Under the pieces are notes generated by a model. That model worked only from the letters and a program-made list of their open reading frames with translations, did not search any database and was not told the origin of the DNA. A program made the position numbers and the translations under genes. A DNA stretch of 64,000 bases, from positions 20,104 to 84,103 of the IMG/VR virus record IMGVR_UViG_3300037851_000103; one strand, 5' to 3'. The DNA is from a virus (taxonomy: Duplodnaviria; Caudoviricetes). Position 1 is the first letter of the stretch, and each line of letters starts with the position of its first letter. Positions 57,733 to 62,225 of the stretch are shown here, one piece after another.

Positions 57733-57773
57733 ATAACCTCATAATTATAAAATAGTTATGAGGTTATTTTTTT
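57733..57773 (+). terminator. Rho-independent terminator
   Basis: 12-bp stem ATAACCTCATAA / TTATGAGGTTAT followed by a T-tract. Confidence 0.8.
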
Positions 57774-57791
57774 ATTTGTTTGAAATAATAA

Positions 57792-57799
57792 TATAAATA
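57792..57799 (+). promoter_or_regulatory. T4-type late promoter box TATAAATA
   Basis: Exact box just downstream of the terminator and 18 nt before ATG 57818, followed by an AAGGTGG SD. Confidence 0.55.
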
Positions 57800-57817
57800 A
57801 AGGTGGAAAACTAAATT

Positions 57818-58387
57818 ATGCAATATGACACTACTGGTAAAGATAGTAATTCTAATACACAAATAATTGTATTAGATCATCTATTAGAGTTAATGAAAAC
57901 TCAGCCGGATACTATTGTTGATATTATTAAAAGTCGAAATTTGCAAATAAAAATGCTTAAAGCCGAAATACAACACCGTAATGTTGTATATAAAGAAATG
58001 GAACAACGATCAGACAATTTAGTAATTGAAAAAAATATTTTAAAACAAGATAATGAAAAATTATTACAAGACATTGAAAAATTATCCCAATACAATTTAA
58101 AATTAAAAAATTATATTAAAGTTATCTTAGAAGACATAAAAGAACTTAATGAATCTAATACAAAACTAAATAATGCTATTAAAATGCCGTGGTGGGAAAG
58201 AATATATAATTATTCAGAATCTTTGCCCATAACAATAAAATCTATTATTCAATTTATTTTTCATCCTCAATTAATTAAATATTTTGGGTATTTAGTTATT
58301 ATTATCATTATTTTAGCTTCATTTATTGGTTGGTCGCCTATTATTTCTACCGTCACTTTAATAATTCAAGCAATTTTTGGGGGATGA
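57818..58387 (+). CDS. Coiled-coil protein with C-terminal membrane anchor
   Basis: Heptad-rich central region; hydrophobic C-terminus YFGYLVIIIIILASFIGWSPIISTVTLIIQAIFGG. Confidence 0.7.
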   Translation: MQYDTTGKDSNSNTQIIVLDHLLELMKTQPDTIVDIIKSRNLQIKMLKAEIQHRNVVYKEMEQRSDNLVIEKNILKQDNEKLLQDIEKLSQYNLKLKNYIKVILEDIKELNESNTKLNNAIKMPWWERIYNYSESLPITIKSIIQFIFHPQLIKYFGYLVIIIIILASFIGWSPIISTVTLIIQAIFGG

Positions 58388-58875
58388 ATATGAAAGGGAA
58401 TGAACCAAAAATAAATATTTTATTAGCTGATGATAAAAGAGAAATTTGTGAGAGTTTAGATTTAAATTTACAATATCAATTGAAAATGTATAATTTAAAA
58501 ACTTATTGTATTCAAACCGTTTTTACTTCACACGCTTGTCAACATGGAAAACAAACTGTTGCTAATGGATTTCTTCCTAATATTTGTATTTTTGATTTGA
58601 TTTTTAATGGTGATACTGGATTAGATTTATATAATTATATTAAACAACAAACCCCATCTAATTATCCACTTTATCTTTGCATATATACGGGAACAGAAAA
58701 ATTGTACCAAAAACGGCAAGAAGCAGAAATATTAGCATCAACTGAACATGGAAATGTTAAAATTGTTCAAAAACCTAATATTAATGAAATTTTATCGTGG
58801 TTCCATTATATACTTTCTAAAAAATATCATTTAGATAAAAAAATAGAAAATGATGATTTGTTCATGACTTTATGA
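58384..58875 (+). CDS. Single-domain response regulator (CheY-like receiver)
   Basis: ILLADD acidic pocket, PNICIFD phospho-acceptor, GLDL, IYTG switch Thr and QKP Lys are all present. Start set at the ATGA overlap. Confidence 0.85.
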   Translation: MNMKGNEPKINILLADDKREICESLDLNLQYQLKMYNLKTYCIQTVFTSHACQHGKQTVANGFLPNICIFDLIFNGDTGLDLYNYIKQQTPSNYPLYLCIYTGTEKLYQKRQEAEILASTEHGNVKIVQKPNINEILSWFHYILSKKYHLDKKIENDDLFMTL

Positions 58876-58885
58876 AAGATGAAAC

Positions 58886-60037
58886 ATGGAAACAAAAAAA
58901 TCTATTTATTTTCCTTGTACTACTTTAAATAGTTTAATCGAAAGTAATTGTAAACAATGTAAAAATTTTAAAAATGAATCGTGTCCTTTTTTAAAAATAG
59001 AAGATACTCCTTTAATTAAAGTATATAATGAACATATTAAAACCATTGCACATGAATTGCGGTCGCCATTAGCAATTATTACGTCATCAACTATTAATCA
59101 AATGAACTATTTAAAAGATTTATTCTATTCTGCTAATTTAGATGATGATACTAATTTAGATTATATTAAAAAAATTAAAGAACAAATTTTATTAATTCAT
59201 GATCAAGTTAATAATATTGACTTATTTATTTCTTCTATTACAGAACATGAACAATATAATCAATCTTGTGAAATTATGGCCATTAATATTAAAGATTATT
59301 TAAAAGATATTATTAAAATATCTAAATCTATTTCACGTTCTATGTTAGTATTTGGAGAAGATGCTTTGTCTTTTGGGGATGTGTTAGGTAATGATTTTGA
59401 TAATGTATATGCCTTAGTAAATCCTCAAGAATTAAATAGAATTATTTTTAATATTATAAGTAATGCGGCTGATGCGGTTTCTAATTTTTGGCATAAAAAA
59501 ATTCAACAAAATTCTACTTATATTCCTAAATTAAAAATTAGATGTTTGAAATCAAAAGATCCATTTCAAACTTTAAATTTTAAAAATGATGTTATTGGTC
59601 CATTTGGACATGAAAAAAATAATTGCGAATTTTTTATAATTATTGAGGATAATGGTCCTGGTATTGAACAATCTATAATTAAACAATTATTTAAAACAAC
59701 TATAACAACGAAAGAAAATAATCATTATGGGTTTGGATTGAAAATTTGCGAAGAATTGGCTAAAAAAAATCGTCTATCGCTATATGTCAAATCTACCCCT
59801 AATATTGGTACTAAATTTATTATAGGATTTCATGATATATTCATATCAAATAAAATAACTGAAAAAGATATAGCATATAATTCTATTAATAATATTGATT
59901 ATGAATTATTATATTTCTCTAAAGATTCTGAAGATTTATATTGTGAATTGGTTAATAGTGAAAATGAAAAAGAAGAAACTGCGAATAAACCAATTACTGA
60001 TAGAATAAAAGTATTTACAAAGAAAAATAGAAAATAA
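58886..60037 (+). CDS. Soluble sensor histidine kinase
   Basis: H-box AHELRSPL, N-box IFNIISNAADA, G1 EDNGPGI, F-box LFKTTITTK, G2 HYGFGLKIC. No transmembrane segment; 4-Cys N-terminus. Confidence 0.9.
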   Translation: METKKSIYFPCTTLNSLIESNCKQCKNFKNESCPFLKIEDTPLIKVYNEHIKTIAHELRSPLAIITSSTINQMNYLKDLFYSANLDDDTNLDYIKKIKEQILLIHDQVNNIDLFISSITEHEQYNQSCEIMAINIKDYLKDIIKISKSISRSMLVFGEDALSFGDVLGNDFDNVYALVNPQELNRIIFNIISNAADAVSNFWHKKIQQNSTYIPKLKIRCLKSKDPFQTLNFKNDVIGPFGHEKNNCEFFIIIEDNGPGIEQSIIKQLFKTTITTKENNHYGFGLKICEELAKKNRLSLYVKSTPNIGTKFIIGFHDIFISNKITEKDIAYNSINNIDYELLYFSKDSEDLYCELVNSENEKEETANKPITDRIKVFTKKNRK

Positions 60038-60298
60038 TTATTTTAAACTTATTCGGACTGTTAAATATGATGTGCAAATATTAAATTTTGCAAGATCCCA
60101 TGGATTTGGTGCGCCTTCCTCATCCATAGCAATTTTTCGTAATTTATCGCCAAATGCCGAAGTTTCATCTTGAGTTTCGAATGAAAATTTCTCAGATTTA
60201 TTAGGACATGTTAATAAATATTCTTCTAATGATTTTATACTAGGTTCTTTTTTCTTTTTTGATTTGGTTTTGGGTTTTTCATCTACAACGGTGATCAT
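60038..60298 (-). CDS. Hypothetical protein
   Basis: 86 aa, GAGG SD; abuts the kinase stop with no gap. Confidence 0.6.
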   Translation of the reverse strand: MITVVDEKPKTKSKKKKEPSIKSLEEYLLTCPNKSEKFSFETQDETSAFGDKLRKIAMDEEGAPNPWDLAKFNICTSYLTVRISLK

Positions 60299-60308
60299 AA
60301 AAACCTCA

Positions 60309-62225
60309 TTAATTATTTATAAGTTCTAAAAATTGTTTTTCTGTTATTTTTGTTATTCCCAATTGATCTGCTTTTTTATTTTTTGATGACCCACTATTCG
60401 GTTCATCTGTTACTAAATAATTTAAATTTTTATTGACCCCAGATACTATTCCGCCATGTTTTTTGACCATTTTTTCTAAATCCCCTCTTTCATGAGACAT
60501 TTTACCCGTAAAGCAAAATGATTTCCCAGCAATTGAAGAATGTTCAATTATTTTATCAGGATTCCAATTATTAATTATAACTCTGGTTTTCATTTCATCA
60601 ATAAGAGGTTCGATCTTTAAAATATTATTTTTTAAAGTACTTGCTAAATTGTTGCAAAACCCCCCTATATTTGATGTGTATTGCGTATTTTTAACATATT
60701 CAATAAATGAATCCAAAGACGTTTCTTTATTAATATGCGATAAAATCGTTTCCAATCGTTTTTCACCAATTCCAGAAAGATTTAAACCATTTAAAAACTT
60801 AAGTAATGTTGTATTAGAAGTTTGCAATAATGCCTTTCTTAAATTTTTAAACATGGTCATTCCAAAACCCTCAATATCCAATAATCGTTCATCACCATTA
60901 ATACACACATCATAAAAAGATGGCAAATCTTTGGCTATGCCAGAATCTATAATAGATATAACAGTAGCTTCAGCAATACCTTTAATTTCATGGGATTCTA
61001 ACCAAGATAAAATAGTTCTAATTCGTTTAGATTTACTATTAGGATTGGTACTAACTAAATATACCAATTCTTTTCCTTCAATGTTTTGTTCTCTAACTAT
61101 TGGAAACCCTTCTTCATCATGGGTTGGGGGTGTAATTTCTTCCCCATCATTTGAATATTCAACTCGTTCAATAGCAGGAATAACATCATTACGACGACTT
61201 ATAACTACGGTATCCCCAATTTTTATACCTAACGTTTTAATATAATCAATGTTATTTAATGTTGCTCTGGATACCGTTATACCACCAATTAATACGGGTT
61301 CTAATAGCCCAATAGGACTAATACGACCTCCGGTATCATTCCACACCACATCTTTTAATATAGTAATCGCAGTCTCATTTGGAAATTTATATGCTATTGA
61401 TAATTCTGGATAATCCCATTTATCATCTTCTAATACATTTTGTTTAATTACTAAACCATCTATATCATAATCTAATAACTTCCTCTTATTTTTTATATAA
61501 TCATCCATAATCCTCTGAATATCATTATTTGTTTGACATACATATGATGGAACAGGATCAAATCCTAATGATATTATAAAATTTATCATATCTTCATGGG
61601 TTTTTAAATTAACATCTTTCCAATTAATAACATTATATATTTTAACATTAAGATATGAACAACCTTTTCCGTCAAATCTTTTTGCGGTTCCTGCTGCACT
61701 ATTTCGACAATTTTTTCCTCCAACAAATTCTAAGTTTGATTTATATAATAAAATTTCACCTCGTAATTTTAATTTATTTTTATAAGAAATTGTTTTTTGT
61801 ACCCCACCCATTTTTATACTATTTTTAAATAAATCTTCACCTGTTTCTCCATCCCCCCGTGTAATGGCATGTTTTAAATTTCCATCTTCATAAATCAATT
61901 TAATAGAAATTCCATCTAATTTTTCTTCAACAATAGTAGGGGGTTTGATTTTTTTATTAAAGAAATCATTTAACTCTTTTTCAGTATTGATCTTATTGAG
62001 ACTTCCCATAAAATACGGGGCATGAGACATTTTTTCCCATTTAGTTGTTTGATCTTCAATATTTCCAATTTTCTTTAATCGTTTATTAGTAGGATCAATT
62101 TTTGCTAAACGAGATTTATAAGAATCATATTGTTCATCTGTTAATGTTGATTGACCAAAAGTATGATAATCAACATCTGCTTGATCTATAATGTTTTCTA
62201 AATATTTTATTTCACTGGCAGCCAT
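60309..62225 (-). CDS. ligA: NAD-dependent DNA ligase
   Basis: EEKLDGIS (KxDG), AITRGDG..GED, YDIDGLVIK, VSRATLNN, C-terminal BRCT (FCFTGKM..ER...VSGVNKNLNYLV...SSKNKKA..LGI). Confidence 0.95.
   Translation of the reverse strand: MAASEIKYLENIIDQADVDYHTFGQSTLTDEQYDSYKSRLAKIDPTNKRLKKIGNIEDQTTKWEKMSHAPYFMGSLNKINTEKELNDFFNKKIKPPTIVEEKLDGISIKLIYEDGNLKHAITRGDGETGEDLFKNSIKMGGVQKTISYKNKLKLRGEILLYKSNLEFVGGKNCRNSAAGTAKRFDGKGCSYLNVKIYNVINWKDVNLKTHEDMINFIISLGFDPVPSYVCQTNNDIQRIMDDYIKNKRKLLDYDIDGLVIKQNVLEDDKWDYPELSIAYKFPNETAITILKDVVWNDTGGRISPIGLLEPVLIGGITVSRATLNNIDYIKTLGIKIGDTVVISRRNDVIPAIERVEYSNDGEEITPPTHDEEGFPIVREQNIEGKELVYLVSTNPNSKSKRIRTILSWLESHEIKGIAEATVISIIDSGIAKDLPSFYDVCINGDERLLDIEGFGMTMFKNLRKALLQTSNTTLLKFLNGLNLSGIGEKRLETILSHINKETSLDSFIEYVKNTQYTSNIGGFCNNLASTLKNNILKIEPLIDEMKTRVIINNWNPDKIIEHSSIAGKSFCFTGKMSHERGDLEKMVKKHGGIVSGVNKNLNYLVTDEPNSGSSKNKKADQLGITKITEKQFLELINN

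What the first reader, a model, noticed from the sequence alone, without database searches (positions are those of the whole stretch)
57733..60037. Phage two-component cassette (membrane coiled-coil protein + stand-alone receiver + soluble kinase) behind a terminator and a late promoter box
Seen: terminator (57733-57773), TATAAATA (57792), then three coupled genes. The receiver keeps all catalytic residues (DD, D, T, K) but has no output domain. The kinase keeps H, N, G1, F and G2 boxes but has no transmembrane sensor. Established: complete two-component pairs are uncommon in lytic phages, and TATAAATA is the T4 gp55-sigma late promoter. Inference: a late-stage phosphorelay in which the membrane protein is the sensing or anchoring partner. 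It might control lysis timing or packaging, or act as a phosphate sink that hijacks host signalling.
Basis: partly seen in the sequence, partly recalled or inferred. Interest (0 to 1): 0.8.

Follow-up and report, generated by a model that had tools for sequence, protein, structure and literature searches.

The report
Late-expressed phage two-component signalling trio
An uncultured freshwater T4-like jumbo phage and its relatives carry, behind their own late promoter, a working-looking histidine kinase, a small phospho-receiver protein and a phage-only membrane-anchored helical protein; what this viral signalling switch controls is unknown.

Summary
A strong hairpin terminator (57733-57773) and a TATAAATA box (57792) precede three tightly packed + strand genes. 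A (57818-58387) is a long cytoplasmic helix with a C-terminal membrane anchor. B (58390-58875) is a stand-alone receiver. C (58886-60037) is a HisKA/HATPase_c kinase.

B is very divergent by sequence (Pfam below cut-off). It still folds as a (beta-alpha)5 CheY-like domain and keeps D14/D15, D69, T100 and K128-P129. C keeps the H, N, G1 and G2 boxes; its F box is partly changed in this lineage.

The trio recurs in every related contig where it could be seen, all metagenomic. One lineage kept A and B but lost the kinase. All three genes are under purifying selection (dN/dS 0.05-0.20). No relative was found in 185,579 prokaryote genomes or 50,697 deposited phage records.

TATAAATA is a real T4-type late promoter here. 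It is the commonest 8-mer upstream of gene starts, precedes virion genes, sits before gene A in 6 of 8 loci, and a relative encodes a gp55 homologue.

New here: most kinases of the family have two N-terminal membrane helices, while the window's clade is soluble and has no sensor. B ends in an almost invariant DPFDLL tail. The output remains unknown, and no evidence links the cassette to lysis. Earlier notes of this scan describe the same family on other DNA.

The parts
57733..57773 (+). Intrinsic terminator closing the upstream transcription unit (the 130-aa phrog_1401 gene). Stem 57733-57767, then a T-run.
   Evidence: 16 pairs, loop of 3, T-run. (-17.2 kcal/mol, z -5.84). Conserved in L022, with no change in the hairpin and T-run.
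57792..57799 (+). TATAAATA, a T4-type (gp55) late promoter box, 19 nt upstream of the start of gene A.
   Evidence: 14 of 44 copies lie within 60 nt upstream of starts against about 1.1 expected; it is the top 8-mer upstream and precedes tail sheath, baseplate and fibre genes; present 23-34 nt upstream of gene A in 6 of 8 loci; gp55 homologue in relative G001.
57800..57806 (+). Shine-Dalgarno-like AAGGTGG for gene A.
   Evidence: Read directly from the sequence.
57818..58387 (+). Gene A, 189 aa. Phage-specific tail-anchored protein: short helix 13-28, one long helix 30-122 with a conserved segment (R40, N41, H53, E60 invariant; R64 nearly so), short amphipathic helices, then hydrophobic helices at about 150-187.
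   Evidence: AF2 model, pLDDT 87. Family of 36 representatives and nothing outside it. Alignment A5. C-terminal membrane segment in 35 of 36. Pfam gives only coiled-coil noise. dN/dS 0.20.
58390..58875 (+). Gene B, 161 aa. Stand-alone CheY-like receiver with D14/D15, D69, T100 and K128-P129, plus a flexible linker and a conserved C-terminal tail (family DPFD[LM]L-COOH; the window has NDDLFMTL).
   Evidence: Alignments A1 and A4. AF2 pLDDT 89.6, (beta-alpha)5. Foldseek against PDB: 49 of the 50 chains listed are receiver or response-regulator entries. Tails. dN/dS 0.053.
58886..60037 (+). Gene C, 383 aa. Soluble class I histidine kinase core (DHp with H56, then a CA domain) with a non-conserved Cys-rich N-terminal stub and a C-terminal extension carrying a conserved S-x-D-S-x-x-L-Y motif (S345).
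   Evidence: Pfam HATPase_c 42.4 bits, above cut-off; HisKA 21.4 bits, below cut-off. Family alignment A3. Best solved relative is HK853 at E 2.3e-13. No membrane segment. dN/dS 0.055.

Best explanation
This is a functional, virus-owned two-component module transcribed late in infection from a T4-type promoter.

Proposed mechanism:
1. Kinase C, a DHp plus catalytic core with no recognisable sensor in this lineage, autophosphorylates on H56.
2. C passes the phosphoryl group to D69 of the single-domain receiver B.
3. B has no output domain, so phospho-B must act by protein-protein contact. The likely contact surfaces are its unusually conserved alpha2 and alpha4 surfaces and its near-invariant C-terminal tail.
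4. The most probable partner or docking site is protein A, a phage-specific dimer-type long helix tethered to the inner face of the membrane. Gene A always accompanies gene B.

Shown: gene anatomy, catalytic residues, fold, conservation, purifying selection, restriction to phages, and the late-promoter context.

Inferred: phosphotransfer itself, contact between A and B, and any downstream effect. The signal and the controlled process are unknown.
For: - Kinase: invariant H, N, G1 and G2 boxes in 19 family members, and closest solved relative HK853. HATPase_c hits in 19 of 19 members.
- Receiver: all five catalytic positions sit at the ends of beta1, beta3, beta4 and beta5 of a confident (beta-alpha)5 model. 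In the PDB fold search, 49 of the 50 chains listed are receiver or response-regulator entries, including RR468 and DesR in complex with their kinases.
- The alpha1 segment of B (DDKKEIC.S) and the H-box helix of C are both highly conserved, as expected of a cognate pair.
- Same gene order with gaps of -23 to +14 nt in the eight loci with DNA that hold all three genes (seven distinct contigs), plus three further contexts without DNA.
- A is present wherever the DNA upstream of B is available, including L011, where the kinase is gone.
- dN/dS against the 90%-identical relative L022: A 0.20, B 0.053, C 0.055.
- No relative in GTDB species genomes or in deposited phage records.
- Late promoter.
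Against: - No biochemical or expression data exist, and no RNA run holds the stretch.
- B is below the Pfam cut-off (19.5 against 30.2 bits), and its profile reaches solved receivers only at E = 0.04 by sequence.
- The window's kinase is the longest branch of its family and has changed two nearly invariant F-box/ATP-lid positions.
- Lineage L011 keeps A and B without the kinase on the 7.6-kb contig, so B may not depend strictly on C.
- No sensor domain is recognisable, so what would be sensed is open.
- Contact between A and B, or between A and C, was not tested here.
Confidence: 0.6

Rival explanations
1. Host-signalling hijack or phosphate sink. The kinase phosphorylates host response regulators, or B drains phosphoryl groups from host kinases or from a defensive two-component system such as Detocs. 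The phage thereby rewires or silences host signalling.
For: The kinase has no sensor, so it may be constitutively active. L011 keeps the receiver without a phage kinase, which is compatible with B taking phosphate from host kinases or acetyl phosphate.
Against: - Late promoter timing fits poorly with takeover or anti-defence functions, which are usually early.
- B and C are both far from cellular relatives, which suggests an insulated cognate pair rather than mimicry of host partners.
- The obligate membrane partner A is not explained.
Confidence: 0.12
2. Membrane or lysis timing switch. Protein A is the effector, a holin-, antiholin- or membrane-remodelling-type protein, and phospho-B binding to its cytoplasmic helix gates its action late in infection.
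For: A is a tail-anchored membrane protein with conserved residues in its membrane segment (S168, G171, W172), expressed late and coupled to B. Most kinases of the family have two membrane helices joined by a very short loop, the intramembrane-sensing type.
Against: - No endolysin, holin or spanin gene lies next to the cassette in the window or in six related contexts; the neighbours are DNA/RNA repair and ligase genes.
- A has no similarity to any holin family. The only PHROG hit is 'hol-like chemotaxis' at E = 0.005, which is not significant.
- A lacks the charged C-terminus usual in holins.
Confidence: 0.12
3. Sliding-clamp ligand. B's invariant acidic-hydrophobic C-terminal tail, on a flexible linker, is a gp45 clamp-binding epitope. 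B would be a phospho-switchable competitor or regulator at the clamp, which in T4-type phages activates late transcription and holds the polymerase.
For: - B ends in DPFD[LM]L-COOH in about 55 of 59 family members, after a variable, low-confidence linker.
- In relative G001 the DNA polymerase ends in EDIEDLFA and the gp55 homologue in KDDDLIFGA.
- The window's own B tail, NDDLFMTL, is closer still to these.
- In T4, gp43, gp55 and gp33 bind gp45 through short hydrophobic and acidic C-termini on divergent linkers (PMC2988020).
Against: - The motifs are alike in type, not identical: F-D-L-L against D-L-F-A.
- A loose acidic-hydrophobic tail pattern fits 12 of 274 ORFs of G001.
- No binding test was possible.
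- The tail could equally dock on A or on C.
Confidence: 0.1
4. B is not a signalling receiver but a cRec-type phosphoesterase, as proposed for jumbo-phage receiver-like domains in RNA-repair and NAD contexts, and the kinase adjacency is incidental.
For: The neighbourhood holds RNA-repair and NAD genes: RlaP and NAD-dependent ligase in the window, and NUDIX, NAD synthase, RNA ligase and Thg1 in relatives. cRec domains are common in jumbo phages (PMC7824862 and PMC9503650).
Against: - cRec is defined as never occurring with a histidine kinase. Here the kinase follows B in 11 of 12 contexts.
- B keeps the full D-D-D-T-K set with K-P, not merely two aspartates.
- B is not fused or adjacent to Nudix, 2H or ligase genes.
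Confidence: 0.03
5. Decaying remnant of a captured bacterial operon with no present function.
For: The window's kinase has lost the membrane anchor, has a long branch and has F-box changes. One lineage lost the kinase.
Against: - Strong purifying selection on all three genes.
- Catalytic residues are invariant across 19 and 59 family members.
- The promoter is conserved.
- No bacterial counterpart was found.
Confidence: 0.03

Closest known systems
HK853-RR468 of Thermotoga maritima (PDB 3DGE, 4JAS): a class I HisKA kinase with a single-domain response regulator
   Same: Best solved sequence relative of C (E 2.3e-13, matching both DHp and CA). B's model superposes on RR468 (3dge_C, TM 0.76 by target). 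Same H, N, G1 and G2 boxes and the same receiver quintet. The receiver has no output domain.
   Different: HK853 is bacterial and has membrane helices and a periplasmic sensor. There is no third membrane coiled-coil partner. B carries an extra linker and a conserved C-terminal tail. B and C are far too divergent to be orthologues (16% identity for B).
Intramembrane-sensing kinases with accessory membrane proteins (LiaFSR, BceRS-AB); named from my own knowledge
   Same: Eleven of 19 kinases of the family have two N-terminal membrane helices with a minimal loop, and a small membrane protein is encoded in the same operon.
   Different: A has no similarity to LiaF or BceAB. The regulator here has no DNA-binding domain. 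The window's clade has lost the membrane helices or never had them.
Single-domain receivers that act by protein contact (CheY with FliM/CheZ, Spo0F with Spo0B, DivK); named from my own knowledge
   Same: Stand-alone receiver with a conserved alpha4-beta5-alpha5 region. A helical-bundle or coiled-coil partner is plausible. A has an invariant His (H53) and an Arg-Asn pair on its conserved helix.
   Different: A shows no homology to CheZ, Spo0B or Hpt. The profile comparison of A with the kinase family gives probability 0.6%. No terminal regulator for a relay is present in the 84%-complete relative.
cRec domains of jumbo phages (Iyer et al. 2021, PMC7824862; 2022, PMC9503650)
   Same: A divergent receiver-fold protein of a jumbo phage, in a region with RNA-repair and NAD genes.
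   Different: cRec is by definition never linked to a histidine kinase, whereas B is. B keeps T100 and K128-P129 as well as the aspartates.
T4 late transcription unit (gp55 sigma, TATAAATA promoter; PMC2988020)
   Same: An identical octamer at the expected distance from starts, in front of virion genes. A gp55 homologue is present in the clade. The tail sheath is 32% identical to T4-like cyanophages.
   Different: T4 and its cultured relatives carry no such kinase-receiver cassette: tblastn of C against 50,697 phage records found nothing.
Hybrid histidine kinases of phaeoviruses and giant viruses, and scattered phage 'response regulator' annotations (BFVD)
   Same: These are also virus-encoded receiver domains. 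They are the top BFVD fold matches of B.
   Different: They are fused hybrid kinases of eukaryotic viruses or regulators with output domains, not a separate kinase, stand-alone receiver and membrane partner. The fold matches are weak (E about 1e-4) with 14-17% identity.

Membership tests
Class I (HisKA-type) histidine kinase | H box with phospho-accepting His in a DHp helix (H-E-L-R-x-P-L) | tested here: met
   H56 E57 R59 P61 L62 are invariant in 19 sequences. The Pfam HisKA match covers residues 49-113 but scores 21.4 bits, below the 26.9 cut-off. The HK853 DHp aligns.
Class I (HisKA-type) histidine kinase | Catalytic ATP-binding domain with N, G1, F and G2 boxes | tested here: met
   HATPase_c scores 42.4 bits, above the 26.4 cut-off. 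N189/N193, D255-G259 and G282-L285 are invariant. The F box is partial in the window: F269 is kept, and T272/I273 replace the family's G/F.
Class I (HisKA-type) histidine kinase | Autophosphorylation and transfer to a cognate receiver | not testable with these tools
   Needs purified protein and labelled ATP.
Receiver (CheY-like, REC) domain | (beta-alpha)5 fold | tested here: met
   AF2 pLDDT 89.6 with element order E-H repeated five times. In the Foldseek PDB search, 49 of the 50 chains listed are receiver or response-regulator entries.
Receiver (CheY-like, REC) domain | Acidic pair after beta1, phospho-Asp after beta3, Thr/Ser after beta4, Lys after beta5 | tested here: met
   D14, D69 and K128-P129 are invariant; D15 and T100 are 90% or more conserved in 59 sequences. 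Their positions match the strand ends of the model.
Receiver (CheY-like, REC) domain | Pfam PF00072 score above the gathering cut-off | tested here: inconclusive
   19.5 bits against a cut-off of 30.2. Forty of 59 family members match at E <= 0.01, best 3.7e-5, and no other family recurs. The cut-off of one model does not define the superfamily.
cRec (cyclic-phosphate-processing receiver-like domain of phages) | Never associated with a histidine kinase; linked or fused to Nudix, 2H, RNA ligase or sirtuin | tested here: not met
   The kinase gene follows B in 11 of 12 contexts. The definition comes from PMC7824862 and PMC9503650.
T4-type late promoter | TATAAATA at the -10 position, upstream of late (virion) genes | tested here: met
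   14 of 44 copies lie within 60 nt upstream of starts against about 1.1 expected. It is the top upstream 8-mer and precedes the sheath, baseplate and fibre genes. It is conserved before gene A in 6 of 8 loci.
T4-type late promoter | gp55-type sigma factor encoded by the phage | tested here: inconclusive
   Found in the 84%-complete relative G001 (E 6.9e-13, 36% identity). Not found in the window's own record, which is only 38% complete.
T4-type late promoter | Transcripts appear late in infection | not testable with these tools
   There is no cultured host and no RNA run holds the stretch.
Intrinsic (rho-independent) terminator | Stable hairpin followed by a U-run | tested here: met
Holin / lysis regulator (for gene A) | Similarity to a holin family or adjacency to endolysin or spanin genes | tested here: not met
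   No Pfam or PHROG holin hit. No lysis gene lies in the neighbourhood.

The most novel reading that the evidence does not exclude
The receiver B is a phosphorylation-controlled ligand of the phage sliding clamp. Its near-invariant acidic-hydrophobic C-terminal tail (DPFDLL-COOH; DDLFMTL in this phage), on a flexible linker, is of the same kind as the clamp-binding tails of the clade's DNA polymerase and gp55. Protein A would hold B at the membrane until kinase C, or loss of phosphorylation, releases it. A virus-owned two-component switch would then feed back on clamp-dependent late transcription or on replication in a T4-type phage.
Probability: 0.1. Interest if true: 0.9.

Novelty: new variant of a known kind. 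Interest (0 to 1): 0.66.

Why it matters
Two-component signalling is treated as a cellular device, and virulent phages are thought to run on fixed transcriptional programmes. Here a whole clade of T4-like jumbo phages maintains its own kinase, its own very divergent receiver and a phage-only membrane partner, under strong selection and behind a late promoter. That implies these viruses take a regulated decision late in infection.

I found no paper describing such a cassette.

The system is small and tractable. The kinase in this lineage is soluble, so autophosphorylation, transfer and partner binding can be tested directly with recombinant proteins. The receiver's invariant C-terminal tail gives a concrete handle for finding the target.

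Tried and rejected
- blastn of the cassette and tblastn of the kinase against 50,697 phage records found nothing.
- A single-sequence scan of IMG/VR with the kinase found nothing. The profile scan with B found one IMG/VR locus and nine metagenome loci.
- The genome-contig scan with B found no prokaryote relative.
- For A, Pfam on all 36 members gave only coiled-coil noise. hhalign of A against the kinase family gave no relation. The ESM Atlas gave scores of 0.82 or less and only generic long-helix structural matches.
- The apparent B-C fusion in L013 is an artefact of ambiguous bases, seen as X in the translation.
- The Cys-rich N-terminal stub of the kinase as a metal or redox sensor is rejected as a conserved feature. 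It is absent or different in P0002-P0006.
- An attempt at a second co-variation case between A column 36 and the B tail, through P0115, failed because the contig is too short and no DNA was available.
- No RNA holder was listed for the stretch.
- I searched G001 for a gp33 homologue by position next to gp32; none was recognised.
- The weak second Response_reg hit in G001 is a truncated 84-aa ORF next to a TnpB-like gene and is not a terminal regulator.
Full report
**Where the window comes from.** The window is bases 20104-84103 of an 84,103-bp IMG/VR virus record that CheckV rates 38% complete. Its G+C content is about 27%. One freshwater metagenome run holds the stretch in full and may be its source. 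The record encodes terminase, tail sheath, sheath stabiliser, baseplate hub and fibre proteins. The sheath is 32% identical to that of T4-like cyanomyoviruses. It is therefore a fragment of a large T4-related myovirus.

**Checking the observation.**
- The hairpin at 57733-57767 followed by a T-run is found by the terminator scan. It folds at -17.2 kcal/mol, z = -5.84.
- TATAAATA lies at 57792-57799, then AAGGTGG, then the ATG of gene A at 57818.
- Three + strand genes follow, with gaps of 2 and 10 nt.

**Is the promoter box more than chance?** In a 27% G+C genome the octamer is not enriched overall (38 found, 32.9 expected). Its placement is far from random.
- In the 84-kb record, 14 of 44 copies lie within 60 nt upstream of a same-strand start, where about 1.1 are expected.
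- It is the commonest of all 8-mers in those upstream regions.
- It precedes the tail sheath, baseplate and giant fibre genes.
- The octamer is kept 23-34 nt before gene A in 6 of 8 loci, although the surrounding DNA is not alignable.
- The 84%-complete relative G001 encodes a gp55 homologue (E 6.9e-13).

I accept it as a T4-type late promoter. Timing itself is untested.

**The kinase (C, 383 aa).**
- Pfam HATPase_c is above its cut-off and HisKA just below.
- Nineteen relatives at 34-47% identity exist, all metagenomic.
- In their alignment H56-E-x-R-x-P-L, N189/N193, D255-N-G-x-G, F269, T275-K276, G282-x-G-L and G308 are invariant.
- The family profile finds HK853 of Thermotoga as its best solved relative, through both the DHp and catalytic domains (E 2.3e-13).
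- Eleven of 19 members carry two N-terminal hydrophobic helices joined by a very short loop.
- The six members nearest the window have none. They form one side of a branch with 100/99 support. The root is unknown, so loss and gain cannot be told apart.
- The window's protein is the longest branch of the tree. It has T272/I273 where the family has G/F in the F box.
- The Cys-rich N-terminal stub is not shared even by the nearest relatives.
- A C-terminal extension carries a conserved S-x-D-S-x-x-L-Y motif.

**The receiver (B, 161 aa).**
- Sequence evidence alone is weak. Pfam gives 19.5 bits against a cut-off of 30.2, and the family profile reaches solved receivers only at E = 0.04.
- The family is large: 59 clusters at 42-54% identity, none carrying a precomputed Pfam domain.
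- D14, D69 and K128-P129 are invariant; D15 and T100 are nearly so.
- AlphaFold2 with this alignment gives pLDDT 89.6 and a clean (beta-alpha)5 order, with those residues at the ends of strands 1, 3, 4 and 5.
- In the Foldseek PDB search, 49 of the 50 chains listed are receiver or response-regulator entries.
- Beyond the active site, the alpha1 segment (the usual kinase-docking helix), an alpha2 motif (T46-x-H48-A49-x-x-H52-G53) and alpha4 residues (R109, A112, E113, S117) are conserved. This points to fixed protein partners.
- After a variable linker of low confidence, about 55 of 59 members end in DPFD[LM]L-COOH. The window and its near relative L022 end in NDDLFMTL.

**The membrane protein (A, 189 aa).**
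- An exhaustive profile search of 1.84 billion representatives finds 36 relatives of 160-226 aa. Beyond them it finds only two short partial sequences of the same C-terminal region and two long proteins at E > 1e-4, which I take to be coiled-coil noise.
- Pfam, PHROGs, hhalign against the kinase family, and the ESM Atlas give only generic coiled-coil or long-helix matches.
- The model is one long helix (residues 30-122), short amphipathic helices, and hydrophobic helices at the C-terminus. Thirty-five of 36 members have the C-terminal membrane segment.
- With no signal sequence, the large N-terminal part must be cytoplasmic. This is an inference.
- Conservation is concentrated in residues 30-65 (R40, N41, H53 and E60 invariant; R64 nearly invariant) and in the membrane segment (S168, G171, W172). 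The middle of the helix varies in length.

**Conservation of the trio.**
- The order A-B-C, with gaps of -23 to +14 nt, recurs in the 379-kb, 198-kb, 91-kb and smaller contigs examined. The flanks are usually a PD-(D/E)XK gene on one side and an NAD-dependent ligase gene on the other.
- In L011, A and an intact B remain but the kinase is replaced by an unrelated ORF on the other strand.
- Against the 90%-identical relative L022, dN/dS is 0.20 for A, 0.053 for B and 0.055 for C.
- Pattern scans with the B profile found no relative in 185,579 prokaryote species genomes and only one in IMG/VR.
- The kinase has no tblastn match in 50,697 deposited phage records.

**Mechanism.** The best-supported reading is a working phosphotransfer pair. 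C autophosphorylates on H56 and transfers to D69 of B. B acts by protein contact.

A is B's obligate genomic companion, even where the kinase is lost.

A is not just a substitute membrane anchor for a soluble kinase, because relatives with membrane-anchored kinases keep it. In the window's clade the kinase has no recognisable input. Control must therefore come from partners or simply from late expression.

**Alternatives.**
- A lysis or membrane-timing role is attractive, but no neighbouring lysis gene supports it.
- A host-signalling hijack or phosphate sink fits the sensor-less kinase and the kinase-less lineage. It fits poorly with late timing and with the divergence from cellular proteins.
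- A cRec-type enzyme is excluded by that family's own definition.
- The most novel possibility concerns B's tail. In G001 the polymerase ends in EDIEDLFA and the gp55 homologue in KDDDLIFGA. In T4 such acidic-hydrophobic C-termini on divergent linkers are the sliding-clamp epitopes (PMC2988020). B's tail has the same build, but it is not the same motif. A loose version of the pattern fits 12 of 274 ORFs. I give this reading about 10%.

**Relation to what is known.**
- The parts are classical: a class I kinase, a CheY-like receiver and a T4 late promoter.
- The arrangement is new. It is owned by a virulent-type phage clade, and both signalling proteins are far from cellular relatives. The receiver carries a C-terminal linear motif, and the third component is a new membrane protein family.
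- Literature searches found no description of phage kinase-receiver cassettes. The two jumbo-phage surveys read describe only the kinase-independent cRec domain.
- Earlier notes of this scan (e1-5747430 and e1-5747435) describe what appears to be the same family in other genomes, and similar trios in other huge phages. They are unchecked AI notes. I re-derived the shared points independently and could not repeat their predicted docking of B on A.

**Verdict.** This is a new variant of a known kind of system, of real interest, with the output still open.

Noticed in passing
L011:1729-3128 (contig Ga0210395_10008777): One lineage keeps gene A and an intact receiver B but has no kinase. A 110-aa ORF on the opposite strand occupies the kinase's place, before the conserved small gene and the ligase.
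   Followed up: partly
window 60038-60298 (- strand), promoter box at 60314-60321: A small conserved gene (86 aa, motif L-L-T-C-P-N-x-S-E) converges on the kinase gene and has its own TATAAATA 16 nt upstream. Homologues of 89-102 aa sit in the same place in relatives. It has no Pfam or PHROG match.
   Followed up: partly
window 5972, 7510, 10275, 14297, 27080, 38392, 44349 (+ strand); L005 1175, 5380, 6586, 12431, 16330: A map of TATAAATA boxes 7-46 nt upstream of virion and glycosylation-cluster genes. It can serve as a late-promoter map of this phage.
   Followed up: yes
L024:1330-3417 (G001 DNA polymerase, - strand): The family B DNA polymerase of the 198-kb relative appears to carry an intein-like insertion between its polymerase motifs. 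The open frame is 1,049 aa, and the Pfam match is split in two.
   Followed up: no
L016:1489-2858 (G001): A truncated 84-aa receiver-like ORF (IVED...FLDHDL; Response_reg E 3e-5, first half of the model only) abuts a 365-aa TnpB-like gene on the other strand. It may be a cRec-type gene cut by an IS element.
   Followed up: partly
L005:9513-10598: A homing-endonuclease-like gene (phrog_3339) lies directly upstream of the large terminase gene and overlaps it.
   Followed up: no
window 58886-60037 versus family alignment A3: The window's lineage is the odd one out in all three proteins at once. The kinase has the longest branch and F-box changes. The receiver tail is NDDLFMTL instead of DPFDLL. 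Protein A has Ile at a column that is Ala in 90% or more of the family (position 36). This may be module-wide co-evolution, but it is a single event and so not testable statistically.
   Followed up: partly
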